DNA of 43,620 bases from Promethearchaeota archaeon (lineage in GTDB: Archaea; Asgardarchaeota; Lokiarchaeia; Sigyniarchaeales; SOKP01), in contig JBHLLT010000023.1 of the NCBI GenBank assembly GCA_048938855.1, positions 1 to 43,620 of the forward strand, read 5' to 3'. Of the stretch, positions 16,174 through 41,614 are shown piece by piece. Below the pieces are notes generated by a model. The model saw nothing but the letters and a program-made list of their open reading frames with translations, made no database searches and had not been told where the DNA came from. Numbering within the stretch: position 1 is the stretch's first letter; each line of letters opens with the position of its first letter. Position numbers and translations under genes: made by a program.

Positions 16174-17226
16174 ATGATAAAGAGCTTAACTTTTGGAATA
16201 ATTTTTAGTGAATTTGATGATATACTTGGCCCGACACCAAAAATGTCTTTTCCTGAAATAGATGAAGATTTCGGAACTAAGATTGCAATGAAATCAATTG
16301 ATATTCTTTCACTAGATGAGATAACAAACTCAAAATCTCTGGCTTTTTTAACTTTTCCAAAAGAAAAAAAAAAAGGAATTGCTCGAATTATTGAATGGAA
16401 AGATGAAACCTCACGAGGTCGTGTGGTTACTGGTGCAATTACCTTAATATTCGAAGAAGTTGATGATTTAATCTATTATAAGTATGTTGAAGATTTAGAA
16501 GAAATATTTGATGAAGCGTCTGAAAAAATTATTGAATTAAAATTATCAAAATCTAATAATAATGTTCTCTCTAAAGAAATAAAAGAGATTCATGTAAAAT
16601 TTCTGAATAAGTTAGAACAGTTAAGAGATTTAGAACTGGGCATTAAGGACGATTCTGAAGAGTTTCCTAGACAAAAAAAGGTCGATAACTTAGATAAATT
16701 TTCATTCAAGATTATTGTTTGTGGCGATCCAGCCTGTGGAAAAACATCAGCTATATTAAGATTTACAGATCACGCATTTATAAGGACATATATCTCTACT
16801 CTGGGGGTAAATATAACAGCTAAAGATATGCAAGTTGATGATATAAAAGTTACCCTCATTATGTGGGATATCGCGGGTCAGATGAAATTTAATTTCTTGC
16901 GAAATCAGTTTTATGCTGGAGCTCAAGCAGTTTTGTTATTATTTGATGTAACACGAACATCTACTTTTAAAAATATTATTAATTGGTATAAAGATATAAT
17001 AAATTCCCTAGAGTCAGATAGCAGTCTTAAAGTGGTTCTATGTGGAAATAAGATTGATTTAGCAGAAGAAAGAAGAGTGCTTACTGAGGAGGCAAAAAGT
17101 CTCGCAAATGAACTTAACATAGATTATGTTGAGACATCTGCATTAACAGGAGAGAATATTGATCAGACCTTTCAAAAAATAGCCAGAGAACTTGTTGATA
17201 AAATAGTGATTCCACTCAATTTATAA
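16174..17226 (+). CDS. Rab-like small GTPase fused to an N-terminal uDENN/longin-like domain
   Basis: C-terminal half: GDPACGKTS, TLGV, WDIAGQ, NKID, ETSA. The N-terminus IIFSEFDDILGP resembles uDENN/Npr2-type longin starts. Confidence 0.85.
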   Translation: MIKSLTFGIIFSEFDDILGPTPKMSFPEIDEDFGTKIAMKSIDILSLDEITNSKSLAFLTFPKEKKKGIARIIEWKDETSRGRVVTGAITLIFEEVDDLIYYKYVEDLEEIFDEASEKIIELKLSKSNNNVLSKEIKEIHVKFLNKLEQLRDLELGIKDDSEEFPRQKKVDNLDKFSFKIIVCGDPACGKTSAILRFTDHAFIRTYISTLGVNITAKDMQVDDIKVTLIMWDIAGQMKFNFLRNQFYAGAQAVLLLFDVTRTSTFKNIINWYKDIINSLESDSSLKVVLCGNKIDLAEERRVLTEEAKSLANELNIDYVETSALTGENIDQTFQKIARELVDKIVIPLNL

Positions 17227-24486: not shown

Positions 24487-25152
24487 ATGTTAAATATTAC
24501 CTTATCACTATGGGATACAGGAGGACAAGAAAGATTTGACTTTTTTAAGACAGATTTCTTTAAAGGCGTTGCGGCAGTTGGTTTAGTTTTTGATTTGAGT
24601 CGTCCTGATACTTTTGATAAGATAGATGAATATTTCCATGAGATTAGAACACGCTCTGGAAATATTCCTATATTTCTAATTGGAAATAAATATGATCTGA
24701 TAAGTGATATTGGTGAAACAATCCCTAGAGAAAAAATACTCCATAAAGTGAATCAATACTATCTATTCGAATACATAGAAACTTCTGCATTAGACAATAA
24801 AAATGTTCAAAGTTTATTTTATCGACTAACAATTACAGCATTATTAGATTTCAAAGCAAGATTAGGAGAAATTGAAGATAGTAATCACTTTAGGTTTAAA
24901 ATTTTACTAACAGGGGCAGCAGCTGTAGGGAAATCATCCTTAATTAGAACATTTACAGATAAAAGCTTTATAGAGAATTACAAACTAACTGTTGGTTTGG
25001 ATTTTATGACACAGAAAATCGAGATTCCTGAAAATAATCTTCCTAAAGAAACTCTGGAATTAATTAAGAAATCAGTTAAAACCTATAAAAAAGTAACTAG
25101 AAAATTGCATAAAAAAGAAGAATTACATGAAATTTCAGAGTCATATAAATAA
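24487..25152 (+). CDS. Circularly permuted Rab-like small GTPase (G3-G4-G5-G1-G2)
   Basis: WDTGGQERF (aa 9), NKYD (aa 67), ETSA (aa 98), then KILLTGAAAVGKSS (G1, aa 143) and TVGLDF (G2, aa 168). SD-like GAGGGGGA upstream. Confidence 0.88.
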   Translation: MLNITLSLWDTGGQERFDFFKTDFFKGVAAVGLVFDLSRPDTFDKIDEYFHEIRTRSGNIPIFLIGNKYDLISDIGETIPREKILHKVNQYYLFEYIETSALDNKNVQSLFYRLTITALLDFKARLGEIEDSNHFRFKILLTGAAAVGKSSLIRTFTDKSFIENYKLTVGLDFMTQKIEIPENNLPKETLELIKKSVKTYKKVTRKLHKKEELHEISESYK

Positions 25153-34310: not shown

Positions 34311-35066
34311 CTAAAATCCATCAAATTTTGCCCATTCATCTTCTTCTTCCTCTTCCTCATCATCAACATATTCTTCAATCACTTCGCTTTTTGCACCTTC
34401 AGAAATTTCTTCTTCGTATTCGTCAAGATCATCTTCAAATGTGATTGATTTTTCTAAATCTGATATAATATCGGCAGCAACCTTTATTTCTGGAATAGGT
34501 TCTTCTACTGGTTTCTTCTTTTCAACTAATTTAAGGTAATCTCCATGGATTTTAATTGTTATTGGAGTTTCTTCTTGTAAAAGCCTAACAACAACCTCTT
34601 CACTCGCACTTGAATCGTGAGGCATTCGCATAACAATAGCTCTAGAGCCTTCGAAAACACCACTAATAATTTCAACAGTATCACCCTCTTCTAAGTATTC
34701 TGTAACACTTCTTGGCAACAGTACATGTTTAAGTTCTGAAAGTTTAATATTTTGCACTATTCTTCCTTTAATATGTGGTATACCTTGCACAGCTATTTGC
34801 ACATCACGCTTCTGGGGGGCTTCAAAGAATATATAGCCTGGTAATAAGGGAGAAACAAGCATAGCTCTTATATCTGGAATTACATCCAAGATTTTGAATC
34901 TATAAAAAATCTGCCTTAAAATATTGCTTTCTTGATTTATTGTTGTTCGCACAGCGAAAAGAGTGGTTAGATCCTCCTTATCTTCGAGCTCCTCCCTGCT
35001 GATTAATGATTCTAACTTTAAAGATTCATTATCGACTTTTTTTACATCCTCTTCTTGATCGGCCAT
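34311..35066 (-). CDS. spt5: Transcription elongation factor Spt5 (NGN + KOW) with acidic terminal extensions
   Basis: FAVRTTINQE, LPGYIFFEA, GIPHIKG; KOW EGDTVEIISGVFEG. Confidence 0.88.
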   Translation of the reverse strand: MADQEEDVKKVDNESLKLESLISREELEDKEDLTTLFAVRTTINQESNILRQIFYRFKILDVIPDIRAMLVSPLLPGYIFFEAPQKRDVQIAVQGIPHIKGRIVQNIKLSELKHVLLPRSVTEYLEEGDTVEIISGVFEGSRAIVMRMPHDSSASEEVVVRLLQEETPITIKIHGDYLKLVEKKKPVEEPIPEIKVAADIISDLEKSITFEDDLDEYEEEISEGAKSEVIEEYVDDEEEEEEDEWAKFDGF

Positions 35067-40084: not shown

Positions 40085-40627
40085 CTATGCAAATTTTTGC
40101 TCATGTTTGTGTTCCTTTACCGAGATTTCTCTTTCACTAAGTTTATTAAGTTTTACTAAATTTTCTTTTATTGCTTTAATTTCTGCCCTGGTGGTAACTT
40201 TATAATCTTTCAAATTATCTAGGATTTCTTTTTCAGTAAAACCTTTATTATAAACTTCTTTAAATTTTGCGATTGTTTTCTCATGATAAAATATATATTG
40301 TTTATTTAAGAACACGATTAACCAGCCTTTTTTTTCTTGATGTTGAGATAGGTCAAACATATCATCCTGTATTTTTTGTAGAGGTTTTTTAAACTTGCGA
40401 GCTAATAACTCATCTTCAATTTTATAATATTTATTTAGAAAATTATGAAGTTTTCTTTTAAACAGTATTCTCGGAACATAAGATAACAAAAATAGCACTA
40501 ATGTTATACCTAGCATCCAAATTGCTACGATTAAATTATAAATAGCTACAATTAGGATAATTCCTACTAAAAATAGAAACCATTTTCTTCCGATTGTTTT
40601 TATGATGACAATATATTTTTTAGGCAA
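40085..40627 (-). CDS. Hypothetical membrane protein
   Basis: N-terminal hydrophobic hairpin and a basic soluble C-terminal domain. Confidence 0.65.
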   Translation of the reverse strand: MPKKYIVIIKTIGRKWFLFLVGIILIVAIYNLIVAIWMLGITLVLFLLSYVPRILFKRKLHNFLNKYYKIEDELLARKFKKPLQKIQDDMFDLSQHQEKKGWLIVFLNKQYIFYHEKTIAKFKEVYNKGFTEKEILDNLKDYKVTTRAEIKAIKENLVKLNKLSEREISVKEHKHEQKFA

Positions 40628-40694: not shown

Positions 40695-40714
40695 GAAGAA
40701 TATGAAAAGGAAAA
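40695..40714 (-). terminator. Putative archaeal oligo-U terminator of the 5S precursor
   Basis: Minus-strand TTTTCCTTTTCATATTCTT immediately follows the outer processing stem. Confidence 0.45.
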
Positions 40715-40719
40715 CGGCA

Positions 40720-40903
40720 TATAACCACATAAAAAAGCGTGACCGGGTATTTTCCTTGTATGCCATGACCGTAAGCAAACTTACAGTTTGTAGTTTCCCA
40801 TAGATCGCAACTACAGTACTATCTACAACGCGAGACAAGTTTAACTTCCGGGTTCGGATGGTTCCAGCGCAGTAGCGAATTGCTACAAATTTATGTGGTT
40901 ATA
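40720..40903. repeat. 14-bp perfect inverted repeat (40720-40733 / 40890-40903) enclosing the permuted 5S gene
   Basis: tataaccacataaa ... tttatgtggttata. Confidence 0.92.
40741..40861 (-). rRNA. rrf: 5S rRNA gene, circularly permuted (3' part 40861-40779, linker TT, 5' part 40776-40741)
   Basis: Minus strand reads CCATCCGAACCCGGAAGTTAAACTTGTCTCGCGTTGTAGATAGTACTGTAGTTGCGATCTATGGGAAACTACAAACTGTAAGT-TT-GCTTACGGTCATGGCATACAAGGAAAATACCCGGTC. All five 5S helices and loops can be assigned after re-ordering; length 121 nt. Confidence 0.9.
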
Positions 40904-40920
40904 AACTATATTTTGAACCA

Positions 40921-40936
40921 TTTTATAAGGTCGGTT
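40921..40936 (-). promoter_or_regulatory. Putative BRE/TATA promoter of the 5S precursor
   Basis: Minus-strand AACCGACC-TTATAAAA lies about 20-25 nt upstream of the 5' arm of the outer stem. Confidence 0.5.
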
Positions 40937-41062
40937 ATTTTACATGAAAATACTTACTTATATATGGTTACAAGTAGATAGGAAAAATTAAAGCTAATAA
41001 TTAAACTTTTCCATAAAGAACATTAAATTTAAAAGATTCAATCAAGGAGGATATATATTTTT

Positions 41063-41614
41063 ATGTTATTTCAACTAATTCTCCAAGAAACTCAATGGTA
41101 CCAATTTTTAGTGAATGGCATTATTACAACAATAGGGAGAACTCTTGATATACTGAGTACTCGATATGTTACAAAAGAATTAAAGTTGGAAACTAATAGA
41201 TTAGCAAAAAAAATCGGTTGGAAAGGAATGCTATTAATACAAATCCCTATCATCCTTCTGGGTTCATTAGACTTCTATTTTAGTTTGTTCATATTTTGCT
41301 GGAGTCTTTTTTTGTTTGCTAATAATATTGAAGGAAGTTGGTATATTAAGCAAGCTGGTGAAGAAGCATATCAAAAAGAACTTAAAGAAAGAGTATCCAA
41401 ATCTAAAATATGGAAGATTGTCTTTAGTGAACTTTCTTCATTTCTAAAATTTACAATGGCAGGAGTCTTTATACTTGTTTTTTTGTTTATTTTTAATGAT
41501 TTAATTGCAGTTTTATTAATATCATTAGCTCTTGTCATCCAAGGTATATTTGGAACTATTAGTTCAATTATATATTTATTAGATTTGAAGAAAGATAGCA
41601 CTAAGAAGGAATAA
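41063..41614 (+). CDS. Hypothetical integral membrane protein
   Basis: Several hydrophobic helices; D.LST......LETN motif; SD AAGGAGG. Confidence 0.7.
   Translation: MLFQLILQETQWYQFLVNGIITTIGRTLDILSTRYVTKELKLETNRLAKKIGWKGMLLIQIPIILLGSLDFYFSLFIFCWSLFLFANNIEGSWYIKQAGEEAYQKELKERVSKSKIWKIVFSELSSFLKFTMAGVFILVFLFIFNDLIAVLLISLALVIQGIFGTISSIIYLLDLKKDSTKKE

What the first reader, a model, noticed from the sequence alone, without database searches (positions are those of the whole stretch)
40720..40936. Circularly permuted 5S rRNA gene that appears to need tRNA-type splicing (BHB-like motif) and may yield a circular 5S rRNA
Seen in sequence (minus strand): the 5S rRNA is encoded out of order. The segment from loop C to the natural 3' end (40861-40779: CCAUCCGAAC-CCGGAAGU-UAAA-CUUGUCUCGC-GUUGUAG-AUAGUA-CUGUAGUU-GCGA-UCUAUG-GGAA-ACUACAAA-CUGUAAGU) comes first. 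The natural 5' segment (40776-40741: GCUUACGG-UCAUG-GCAUACAAG-GAAAAU-ACCCGG-UC) follows after only 2 nt. After re-ordering it folds as 5S: helix I GCUUACGG/CUGUAAGU, helix II GC-AUACAAG/CUUGUCU-C-GC, helix III AC-CCGG/CCGG-AA-GU with the canonical AA bulge, helix V UUGUAG/CUACAA, AGUA/GAA loop E and GCGA loop D. The natural ends are fused into a hairpin AAG-UUUG-CUU. Leader and trailer pair as GCG/CGC, a 3-nt bulge UCA (40742-40740), a 4-bp helix CUGG/CCGG, then AAC (40863-40861). This is a relaxed bulge-helix-bulge (hBH/BHL) because the exon-side helix is unpaired. It is held by a perfect 14-bp outer stem, between a TATA-like box and a U-rich tract. Established: archaeal EndA cuts after the second nt of each bulge and RtcB ligates; this matures permuted tRNAs (Thermofilum) and the permuted, circular SRP RNA of Thermoproteus. 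Inference: cuts at UC|A and AA|C give a 121-nt circle whose junction reads CCGG-UCCCAUCCGAAC-CCGG, a consensus loop C that exists only after splicing. I know of no described permuted 5S rRNA gene but cannot search the literature. Standard rRNA finders would probably miss it or call it partial.
Basis: partly seen in the sequence, partly recalled or inferred. Interest (0 to 1): 0.97.

Follow-up and report, generated by a model that had tools for sequence, protein, structure and literature searches.

The report
Back-to-front 5S rRNA gene, ring-forming
This Asgard archaeon writes its only 5S ribosomal RNA gene back part first, between cut signals of the tRNA-splicing enzyme, so a normal 5S can arise only if the transcript is cut and rejoined, most likely into a closed 121-base ring.

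Summary
Observation confirmed at the stated coordinates. On the minus strand, 40861-40779 holds 5S loop C through the natural 3' end. A UUUG cap follows, then the natural 5' part (40776-40741).

Rfam scores the native order below threshold (31.5 vs 38 bits), and it is the only 5S candidate in a 97%-complete genome. Re-ordered, it aligns full length to colinear 5S of the sister family and folds into 30 of 32 expected 5S pairs.

The ends form GCG/CGC, a 4-bp CUGG/CCGG helix and two 3-nt bulges: a relaxed bulge-helix-bulge (BHB) motif inside a perfect 14-bp stem.

The strongest support is comparative.
- None of 131 sampled genomes of the family has an archaeal colinear 5S; 118 have this permuted gene.
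- About half open the circle 16 nt away and encode the junction predicted here colinearly.
- In those relatives the BHB and outer stem covary.
- Ten further Asgard families share the layout.
- The genome encodes a two-subunit splicing endonuclease and RtcB ligase.

Cutting, ligation and the ring are therefore inferred.

I found no paper describing this. This scan has noted the same feature before on many other Asgard genomes.

The parts
40918..40934 (-). TATA-like element (CCGACCTTATAAAATGG), candidate promoter of the 5S precursor
   Evidence: Sequence. Strongly conserved in relatives. Its function as a promoter is inferred. The TATA lies only about 24 nt from the stem, so the transcription start is uncertain.
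40890..40903 (-). 5' arm of the 14-bp outer (processing) stem
   Evidence: Exact reverse complement of 40720-40733. It forms in the MFE fold. In type B relatives 9 of 12 pairs show changes on both sides and 89% of cells are paired.
40872..40886 (-). Leader hairpin GUAGC-AAUUC-GCUAC between the outer stem and the BHB
   Evidence: Folds in the MFE structure. Conserved, with one pair changing GC to AU in relatives.
40868..40870 (-). BHB outer helix hA, 5' strand (GCG)
   Evidence: Pairs with CGC at 40737-40739. Paired in 100% of 28 type A sequences. The homologous helix covaries at 5 of 5 pairs in type B relatives.
40864..40867 (-). BHB central 4-bp helix hB, leader strand (CUGG)
   Evidence: Pairs with CCGG at 40743-40746. 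Paired in 100% of sequences. It covaries with helix III in relatives: CG in 19, UA in 7, UG in 6.
40861..40863 (-). 3-nt bulge AAC; predicted cut AA|C, so C40861 is the first retained base
   Evidence: Sequence geometry. The cut position follows the established rule for archaeal EndA (my own knowledge). The product matches the colinear sequence of type B relatives.
40741..40861 (-). Permuted 5S rRNA body (121 nt) retained between the two predicted cuts
40780..40861 (-). 5S loop C (3' part), helix III 3' strand, helix II 3' strand, helices V and IV with loops E and D, and helix I 3' strand
   Evidence: cmscan alignment to RF00001, HMM positions 36-115, and compensatory changes in helices II, IV and V.
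40776..40779 (-). UUUG cap joining the natural 3' and 5' ends of helix I
   Evidence: Sequence. In relatives the cap is UUNG, often UUCG; in other Asgard families it is mostly a UNCG or GNRA tetraloop.
40741..40775 (-). 5S helix I 5' strand, loop A, helix II 5' strand, loop B, helix III 5' strand and the first 2 nt of loop C
   Evidence: A weak separate HMM hit to positions 3-24 lies downstream of the main hit. The fold of the re-ordered RNA agrees.
40743..40746 (-). BHB central helix hB', exon strand (CCGG); the same bases form the helix III 5' strand in the mature RNA
   Evidence: The BHB conformer is only 1.1 kcal/mol above the precursor MFE.
40740..40742 (-). 3-nt bulge UCA; predicted cut UC|A, so C40741 is the last retained base
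   Evidence: Sequence. Joining C40741 to C40861 gives the loop C that relatives encode colinearly.
40737..40739 (-). BHB outer helix hA', trailer strand (CGC)
40720..40733 (-). 3' arm of the 14-bp outer stem
40704..40717 (-). T-rich tract (two T4 runs), candidate transcription stop
   Evidence: Sequence only; function inferred.

Best explanation
This is the genuine and only 5S rRNA gene of a Lokiarchaeia-type Asgard genome, encoded in circularly permuted order.

Proposed pathway:
1. The precursor is transcribed on the minus strand, from near the outer-stem 5' arm to the T-rich tract.
2. The 14-bp outer stem and the 3-bp GCG/CGC helix bring leader and trailer together.
3. The leader's CUGG then pairs with the CCGG that later becomes the helix III 5' strand. 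This gives two 3-nt bulges separated by 4 bp, a relaxed bulge-helix-bulge motif.
4. The two-subunit splicing endonuclease cuts after the second bulge base on each strand (AA|C and UC|A).
5. RtcB joins the resulting 5'-OH and 2',3'-cyclic phosphate ends.

This is the chemistry archaea use to circularise pre-16S and pre-23S rRNA and tRNA introns. Here the ligation builds loop C and yields a 121-nt ring with full 5S architecture. Helix I is closed by a UUUG cap, so the ring probably stays closed in the ribosome.

Shown: the gene order, 5S identity, uniqueness in the genome, conservation, covariation of the BHB and stem in relatives, and presence of the enzymes.

Inferred: transcription limits, cleavage, ligation and the final topology.
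For: **Identity and uniqueness**
- RF00001 matches only this locus in the genome, below threshold and with helix II unpaired.
- Re-ordering gives a full-length HMM match at 42.0 bits against 29.2 bits and 30 of 32 5S pairs in the MFE fold.

**No alternative 5S in the family**
- None of 131 sampled family genomes has an archaeal colinear 5S. The two above-threshold hits lie next to bacterial 23S, so they are contamination.
- In the sister family, 12 of 14 genomes have a normal 5S.
- The permuted-core model R1 hits 118 of 131 family genomes, nearly always once, including single-contig genomes G006 and G023.

**The junction is independently encoded**
- 32 relatives open the circle 16 nt away. They use hA-CYGG-AA|G at the 5' end and CCRG-AA|N-hA' at the 3' end, and carry the junction predicted here as contiguous DNA.
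- In-silico processing of both types gives the same 5S sequence.
- The 29-nt junction string is identical to colinear 5S genes of other archaea.

**BHB support**
- Among all BHB-rule candidates, the one scoring best against the independent colinear HMM is the predicted one in more than 50 of 61 loci.
- In type B relatives all 5 hA pairs change on both sides and 95.6% of cells are paired.
- hB is 100% paired and covaries (CG 19, UA 7, UG 6).
- In the outer stem 9 of 12 pairs covary.
- The covariation score is 0.385, against 0.172 for shuffles (0 of 500 reach it) and at most 0.113 for slid controls.
- The BHB conformer is 1.1 kcal/mol above the MFE.

**Enzymes**
- Two EndA paralogs are present. 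One resembles crenarchaeal catalytic subunits and keeps Tyr, His and Lys; the other has Ser at the His position.
- One RtcB is present.

**Same machinery on the same RNA in relatives**
- Relatives carry 30-nt BHB introns in loops D and C whose removal restores the consensus exactly.

**Breadth**
- The same layout, with hA of 10-15 bp, occurs in at least 10 other Asgard families.

**Feasibility**
- An engineered 5S with its native ends joined by a tetraloop works in E. coli ribosomes (PMC7283268).
Against: - Neither the cuts, the ligation nor the ring was observed.
- In this window the motif is relaxed. hA is only 3 bp and there is no exon-side helix.
- The unconstrained MFE prefers helix III over hB by 1.1 kcal/mol.
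- Among the 28 type A sequences hA and hB hardly vary, so the covariation support comes from type B relatives.
- Promoter and terminator are unverified. The TATA-like box is close to the stem, and a T6 run (40731-40736) lies between hA' and the 3' stem arm. That run could end some transcripts early.
Confidence: 0.78

Rival explanations
1. The transcript is cut and ligated as above, but the ring is only an intermediate. A second nuclease opens the helix I cap and the ribosome carries an ordinary linear 5S. This is how permuted tRNAs are finished by RNase P and tRNase Z.
For: Permuted tRNAs and most circular pre-16S rRNAs are re-linearised (PMC3218864; PMC12918454). Every described cytoplasmic 5S rRNA is linear.
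Against: - Only 4 nt join the natural ends, so there is no spacer to remove.
- Across lineages the cap is mostly a stable UNCG or GNRA tetraloop, and helix I is sometimes lengthened. That looks like a structural cap, not a processing site.
- No conserved cleavage motif is visible there.
- An engineered tetraloop-closed helix I is tolerated in E. coli (PMC7283268).
Confidence: 0.14
2. The endonuclease trims the precursor but the ends are not joined. The ribosome then uses a linear, permuted 5S with a nick in loop C, as in the permuted mitochondrial 5S of brown algae.
For: Permuted 5S RNAs that stay permuted exist in brown-algal mitochondria (PMC4267664). Loop C is an apical loop, where new ends were tolerated in engineered 5S (PMC7283268).
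Against: - The opening point differs between close relatives (loop C, helix III 3' strand, loop B), yet each gives the same sequence only if ligated. A nick inside the helix III strand in type B would weaken that helix.
- EndA products are the natural substrates of RtcB, which is present.
- The loop D and C introns in relatives require ligation in any case.
Confidence: 0.06
3. The locus is an assembly artefact (collapsed tandem 5S copies) or a dead pseudogene, and a normal 5S gene is simply unassembled.
For: The genome is a 93-contig assembly with 7% estimated contamination. rRNA genes are often missing from such bins.
Against: - The same order, unique leader and trailer, and the same downstream gene occur in 58 of 60 independently assembled relatives, including single-contig genomes.
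- No archaeal colinear 5S was found in 131 family genomes.
- Compensatory changes in helices II, IV and V show purifying selection on the RNA.
Confidence: 0.02

Closest known systems
Permuted SRP RNA gene of Thermoproteus (Plagens et al. 2015, eLife, PMC4731332)
   Same: An essential structured non-coding RNA is encoded with its 3' part before its 5' part. BHB-type ends are cut by the splicing endonuclease and ligated. The circular RNA is the functional form, and standard gene finders miss the gene.
   Different: That case is SRP RNA in a few Crenarchaeota. Here the RNA is a ribosomal RNA, the trait spans a whole family and many Asgard lineages, and the opening point moves between close relatives. 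The circle is shown experimentally there and only inferred here.
Circularly permuted tRNA genes (Thermofilum pendens, Chan et al. 2011, PMC3218864; Cyanidioschyzon merolae, Soma et al. 2007 as cited in PMC4267664)
   Same: Swapped gene halves, a BHB motif at the precursor termini and a circular intermediate made by the tRNA-splicing machinery.
   Different: tRNA circles are re-opened at the natural ends by RNase P and tRNase Z, removing a spacer. Here the natural ends are joined by a 4-nt cap with nothing to remove.
Circular pre-16S and pre-23S rRNAs, and circular or permuted mature 23S in archaea (PMC7758197; PMC12918454)
   Same: A processing stem carries a BHB, EndA excises the RNA and RtcB circularises it. 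A circular rRNA can reside in the ribosome.
   Different: Those genes are colinear, so ligation joins the natural ends. Here the gene is permuted and ligation builds an internal loop (loop C). The cited survey states that 5S is not processed this way.
Permuted mitochondrial 5S rRNA of brown algae (Valach et al. 2014, PMC4267664)
   Same: A natural 5S in which helix I is a closed hairpin and the ends lie elsewhere.
   Different: It is organellar. The RNA stays permuted and linear, with an open three-way junction, and has no BHB, splicing or ligation.
Engineered circularly permuted 5S in E. coli (Huang et al. 2020, PMC7283268)
   Same: Native 5S ends are closed by a tetraloop and new ends opened at an apical loop. 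The ribosomes are functional.
   Different: It is artificial and tethered into 23S rRNA, not a free ring, and it is bacterial.

Membership tests
5S rRNA (Rfam RF00001) | Three-way junction with helices I-V | tested here: met
   After re-ordering, the MFE fold (linear and circular) shares 30 of 32 expected pairs. Helices II, IV and V show compensatory changes in relatives.
5S rRNA (Rfam RF00001) | Conserved loop C, loop E and loop A sequence motifs | tested here: met
   cmscan aligns loop C, loop E and helices IV and V with high posterior probability. The spliced loop C and helix III 29-mer is identical to colinear archaeal 5S genes.
5S rRNA (Rfam RF00001) | Colinear gene scoring above the curated threshold (38 bits) | tested here: not met
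   The native order scores 31.5 bits. A sequence HMM of colinear relatives was used instead: 42.0 against 29.2 bits.
5S rRNA (Rfam RF00001) | It is the organism's ribosomal 5S, with no other copy | tested here: met
   Single candidate in a 97%-complete genome. None of 131 family genomes has an archaeal colinear 5S.
Archaeal bulge-helix-bulge (BHB) splicing motif | Two 3-nt bulges on opposite strands separated by a 4-bp helix | tested here: met
   CUGG/CCGG flanked by AAC and UCA. The helix is paired in 100% of 28 type A and 32 type B sequences.
Archaeal bulge-helix-bulge (BHB) splicing motif | Flanking helices on both sides (strict hBHBh') | tested here: not met
   The outer helix is present (GCG/CGC plus the 14-bp stem). 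There is no exon-side helix, so the motif is the relaxed hBH form. The loop D introns of relatives are the strict form.
Archaeal bulge-helix-bulge (BHB) splicing motif | Pairing maintained by compensatory change | tested here: met
   In type B relatives all 5 hA pairs and 1 hB pair change on both sides, and shuffled and slid controls score far lower. Among type A sequences alone there is almost no variation.
Archaeal bulge-helix-bulge (BHB) splicing motif | Cleavage by EndA and ligation by RtcB | not testable with these tools
   The enzymes are encoded.
Permuted non-coding RNA genes matured through a circle (tRNA, SRP RNA) | 3' part encoded upstream of 5' part, with the natural ends joined by a short linker | tested here: met
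Permuted non-coding RNA genes matured through a circle (tRNA, SRP RNA) | Circular RNA with the predicted junction detected | not testable with these tools
The metagenome scan for the junction found only colinear 5S genes of unrelated archaea.
Heterotetrameric (two-subunit) archaeal splicing endonuclease with relaxed substrate range | One catalytic and one structural paralog | tested here: met
   Two ORFs carry both EndA domains and are 34% identical. The 197-aa protein aligns best to crenarchaeal catalytic chains and keeps Tyr, His and Lys. The 202-aa protein has Ser where M. jannaschii EndA has the catalytic His. That such enzymes cut relaxed BHBs is established knowledge, not tested here.

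The most novel reading that the evidence does not exclude
The 5S rRNA inside the ribosomes of this family, and of most Asgard lineages, is a covalently closed ring with no free ends. It is made by the tRNA-splicing machinery from a permuted gene whose opening point shifts or is exchanged repeatedly between close relatives. If so, an obligatory RNA cut-and-join step in building a core ribosome part is widespread among the closest archaeal relatives of eukaryotes.
Probability: 0.5. Interest if true: 0.95.

Novelty: new variant of a known kind. Interest (0 to 1): 0.88.

Why it matters
- **A new case of 5S maturation.** 5S rRNA is universal and has been treated as a simple colinear, linear RNA. 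The archaeal literature I could search states that it is not matured by circularisation. Here a core ribosomal RNA would depend on the tRNA-splicing endonuclease and ligase, and may be the first circular 5S.
- **Annotation.** It explains why 5S genes look missing from a whole Lokiarchaeia family and many other Asgard genomes. That affects genome-quality standards that require a 5S.
- **Search tools.** The results give a practical search model and a junction string to look for.
- **Evolution.** Three related observations bear on how permuted RNA genes evolve: opening points that differ between close relatives, 30-nt BHB introns in the same gene, and a colinear sister family that includes the cultured Loki-type genomes. 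They also indicate how heavily Asgard archaea use BHB splicing.

Tried and rejected
2. **Rfam on the re-ordered sequence.** I substituted nhmmer with a colinear-5S HMM, ViennaRNA folds and a model of the permuted core.
3. **Metagenome scan for the spliced 29-mer**. I hoped for metatranscriptome contigs of the ring. It returned only colinear 5S genes of unrelated archaea with higher GC. That confirms the junction sequence but is not RNA evidence.
4. **Above-threshold 5S hits in two family genomes** (G076, G094). Both lie next to bacterial 23S rRNA, so I rejected them as contamination.
5. **Assembly collapse or pseudogene.** Rejected; see the rival explanations.
6. **The f4 locus L022** is permuted with yet another opening point, but I could not find a convincing BHB there. 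In f4 (L166, L167) and f3 (L011) the automatic BHB search picked spurious solutions; the f3 motif was derived by hand only.
7. **Sigma-70 promoter and terminator scan**. Uninformative for an archaeon.
It was repeated by reference.
9. **Literature searches.** Searches for a permuted or circular 5S in archaea or Asgard found nothing relevant beyond the papers cited. Subscription-only papers are not covered.
Full report
**1. What is at the locus**

On the minus strand, the 435-nt gap between two protein genes (40085-40627 minus, 41063-41614 plus) holds a 5S-like RNA gene whose parts are out of order. Reading 5' to 3':

| Element | Coordinates |
|---|---|
| TATA-like box | 40934-40918 |
| Outer stem, 5' arm | 40903-40890 |
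| Leader hairpin | 40886-40872 |
| hA, GCG | 40870-40868 |
| hB, CUGG | 40867-40864 |
| Bulge AAC | 40863-40861 |
| 5S, loop C to natural 3' end | to 40780 |
| UUUG cap | 40779-40776 |
| 5S, natural 5' end to helix III 5' strand | to 40743 |
| Bulge UCA | 40742-40740 |
| hA', CGC | 40739-40737 |
| T6 run | 40736-40731 |
| Outer stem, 3' arm | 40733-40720 |
| T-rich tract | 40717-40704 |

The two stem arms are exact reverse complements over 14 bp.

**2. Is it a 5S, and is the permutation real?**

- At curated thresholds Rfam finds nothing in the window. At relaxed thresholds RF00001 matches 40778-40890 at 31.5 bits (threshold 38), with helix II and part of helix I mispaired.
- This is the only 5S candidate in the whole genome, which is 3.95 Mb, 93 contigs and 97% complete.
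- I could not run the Rfam model on a re-ordered sequence, because the tool reads only stored sources. I therefore built an HMM from nine colinear 5S genes of the sister family.
  - The re-ordered window sequence scores 42.0 bits over positions 3-115.
  - The native order scores 29.2 bits over positions 36-115.
  - In the native order the missing 5' part appears as a separate weak hit downstream of the main hit.
- The re-ordered 121-mer folds, linear or circular, into a three-way junction that shares 30 of 32 expected 5S pairs.

**3. Comparative evidence**

In the same GTDB order, family f2 has ordinary 5S genes at 50-69 bits in 12 of 14 genomes. Judging only by two single-contig genomes of 4.4 and 6.0 Mb, f2 is probably the family of the cultured Loki-type archaea.

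The window's family f1 differs.
- No archaeal colinear 5S was found in 131 sampled genomes from 13 genera.
- The two above-threshold hits sit next to bacterial 23S rRNA, so they are contamination.
- A hallmark pattern (natural 3' end, 4 nt, natural 5' end) found about 60 Asgard records among GTDB species genomes. NCBI labels them Promethearchaeota or Promethearchaeia, for example Loki_b32, ABR03-06 and two CP-numbered chromosomes.
- A covariance model of the permuted core (R1, 102 positions) gives full-length hits of 77-121 bits in 118 of 131 f1 genomes, almost always once per genome. These include single-contig genomes. Colinear f2 genes reach only about 31 bits.
- The same 180-aa membrane-protein gene follows the 5S in 58 of 60 loci.

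Assembly artefact and pseudogene are therefore excluded.

**4. The junction is encoded colinearly in relatives**

The family has two layouts.

| | Type A (28 loci, including the window) | Type B (32 loci) |
|---|---|---|
| Where the circle opens | 5' side of loop C | 16 nt further on, in the helix III 3' strand |
| 5' end | hA-CYGG-AA\|C-CAUCC... | hA-CYGG-AA\|G-UUAAAC... |
| 3' end | ...CCGG-UC\|A-hA' | ...CCRG-AA\|N-hA' |

- Type B genes carry ...ACCCGG-UCCCAUCCGAAC-CCGGAA as one contiguous stretch.
- Type A genes carry contiguously the junction that type B must make.
- Applying the same rule to both types (a 4-bp helix, a 3-nt bulge, a cut after the second bulge base) gives the same 5S sequence of 119-123 nt.
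- The 29-nt junction string is also identical to colinear 5S genes of unrelated archaea found in metagenomes.

**5. The BHB**

- I enumerated every leader/trailer pair that fits the BHB rule (26-66 per locus) and scored each product with the independent colinear HMM. The predicted motif won in more than 50 of 61 loci.
- On the type A alignment, hA and hB are paired in 100% of sequences but hardly vary.
- On the more diverse type B alignment:
  - All 5 hA pairs change on both sides and 95.6% of cells are paired. Examples are GCG/CGC, AAACG/CGUUU, CCCAU/GUGGG and AAAAUG/CAUUUU.
  - hB is 100% paired, with CG in 19, UA in 7 and UG in 6 sequences at one pair.
  - The 7 sequences with CCAG also have CUGG in the helix III 5' strand.
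  - In the outer stem 9 of 12 pairs change on both sides.
  - The covariation score is 0.385, against 0.172 for shuffles (0 of 500 reach it) and at most 0.113 when partners are slid.
- In the window the motif is relaxed. hA is 3 bp and there is no exon-side helix. hB competes with helix III for the same CCGG, and the BHB conformer lies 1.1 kcal/mol above the MFE.

**6. Enzymes**

The genome encodes one RtcB and two EndA-family proteins that both carry the N- and C-terminal domains and are 34% identical.
- The 197-aa protein aligns best to crenarchaeal catalytic subunits and keeps the Tyr, His and Lys positions.
- The 202-aa protein has Ser where the M. jannaschii enzyme has the catalytic His.

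This fits a two-subunit heterotetramer. By established knowledge, not tested here, that architecture accepts relaxed BHB motifs.

**7. The same machinery acts elsewhere on this RNA in relatives**

Several relatives have 30-nt insertions in loop D (31 nt in one locus).
- They form strict BHBs. Helix IV serves as the outer helix, the 4-bp central helix covaries (UUGC/GCGA, UUGC/GCAG, UUGA/UCAG, UUAC/GUGA), and an inner helix of 4-9 bp is present.
- Their removal restores the intron-less sequence exactly.

Many type B genes also have a 30-nt insertion in loop C, with UCCG/CGGG, AA|N and AA|C bulges and a covarying inner helix. One locus has both insertions (180 nt between the cuts).

**8. Breadth in the phylum**

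- In an even sample of 151 Asgard genomes, only 49 have an above-threshold 5S, concentrated in a few families.
- I fetched 22 sub-threshold loci from other families. The order loop E, helix I hairpin, CCAUAG, loop C shows the type B layout in f4, f5, f7, f8, f10, f11, f19, f21, f22 and f23.
  - f5 is Odin-like and includes a closed 1.4-Mb genome.
  - f7 includes a closed 3.1-Mb genome with two copies.
- An unbiased search for the best BHB in each locus returned the expected motif in 14 of 22. These have hA of 10-15 bp, hB of 3-4 pairs, 3-nt bulges, an exon of 121-131 nt and a junction ...ACGGA^AGUYAAGC.
- One f3 genome opens in loop B (hand analysis of L011).
- Type B is therefore the widespread form, and the window's type A is a variant within f1.
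- On a tree of the adjacent gene, the A/B label needs at least 7 changes. This means repeated shifts or, perhaps more likely, recombinational exchange of the small cassette between relatives. One linked gene is not a species tree.

**9. Final form of the RNA**

Only 4 nt join the natural ends. Across lineages the cap is mostly a UNCG or GNRA tetraloop, and helix I is sometimes lengthened. That argues for a permanent structural cap and hence a closed ring. An engineered 5S with tetraloop-joined native ends works in E. coli (PMC7283268). This step is still inference.

**10. Literature and earlier notes**

- Searches of the held library found no description of a permuted or circular 5S in archaea.
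- The only 'permuted 5S' paper concerns brown-algal mitochondria, where the RNA stays permuted and linear (PMC4267664).
- A 2026 survey says archaeal 16S and 23S, but not 5S, are circularised (PMC12918454).
- A survey of 5S expansion segments mentions no Asgard case (PMC7812874).
- The closest published analogue is the permuted, circular SRP RNA of Thermoproteus (PMC4731332).
- This scan has noted the same feature before on other DNA: 163 notes in at least 111 genomes. They include the movable opening point, and some claim environmental RNA reads of the ring. I reached my reading before those look-ups and could not test the RNA claims.

**11. Verdict**

| Claim | Probability |
|---|---|
| Real, conserved, single-copy permuted 5S gene | about 0.97 |
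| Matured by BHB cleavage and ligation into a 121-nt ring | about 0.8 (inferred) |
| The ring is the mature ribosomal form | about 0.5 |

Noticed in passing
Relatives: L031, L067, L109, L091, L032, L076, L040, L078 (loop D); L032, L038, L054, L087, L095, L101, L106, L110 (loop C): The permuted 5S genes of many relatives carry introns of 30 nt (31 nt in L106) in loop D (strict BHB) and in loop C (relaxed BHB). Their removal restores the consensus exactly. I found no report of BHB introns in a 5S rRNA in the library searched.
   Followed up: partly
window 40953-41010 (minus strand): A second promoter-like element (AAAAGTTTAATTATTAGC, 41010-40993) lies upstream of the TATA-like box. A conserved hairpin (40982-40953) and a short T run follow it. 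Both are conserved across the family. They could be the true start of the precursor or a separate small RNA.
   Followed up: no
window 40085-40627 (minus strand): A 180-aa predicted membrane protein lies directly downstream of the 5S gene and is syntenic in 58 of 60 relatives. Its own promoter-like element sits just after the 5S trailer. On its tree the two 5S opening types interleave, needing at least 7 changes.
   Followed up: partly
L022 (G031, family f4) and L011 (G026, family f3): Two further opening points. f3 opens in loop B (CGC-CCGA-AA|A and UCGG-AA|A-GCG, by hand). The f4 locus opens near the helix II to helix V junction, and no clear BHB was found there.
   Followed up: partly
L169, L175, L179 (family f7): The best BHB (hA of 11 bp) would give a ring of 151-153 nt. 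It still contains a 30-nt hairpin-bearing insert between helix III and the UUAAGC segment. This may be a nested intron removed in a second step.
   Followed up: no
L115 (G076) and L118 (G094): The only above-threshold 5S hits in the family lie next to bacterial 23S rRNA, one of them with a group I intron. They are bacterial contigs binned into the archaeal genomes.
   Followed up: yes
L074 (loop C region) and L049: L074 has a loop C insertion that duplicates part of loop B and helix III. L049 has only the 3' portion of the unit behind unrelated sequence. Both may be rearranged or decaying copies.
   Followed up: no
L176 (G263, family f9): A colinear Asgard 5S with a large insertion after helix III. 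It scores below the Rfam threshold for a different reason: expansion or an intron, not permutation.
   Followed up: no
window 24487-25152, 16174-17226 and 34311-35066: Earlier first-reader notes on this window mention a circularly permuted Rab-like GTPase, a longin-GTPase fusion and an extended Spt5. I did not examine them.
   Followed up: no
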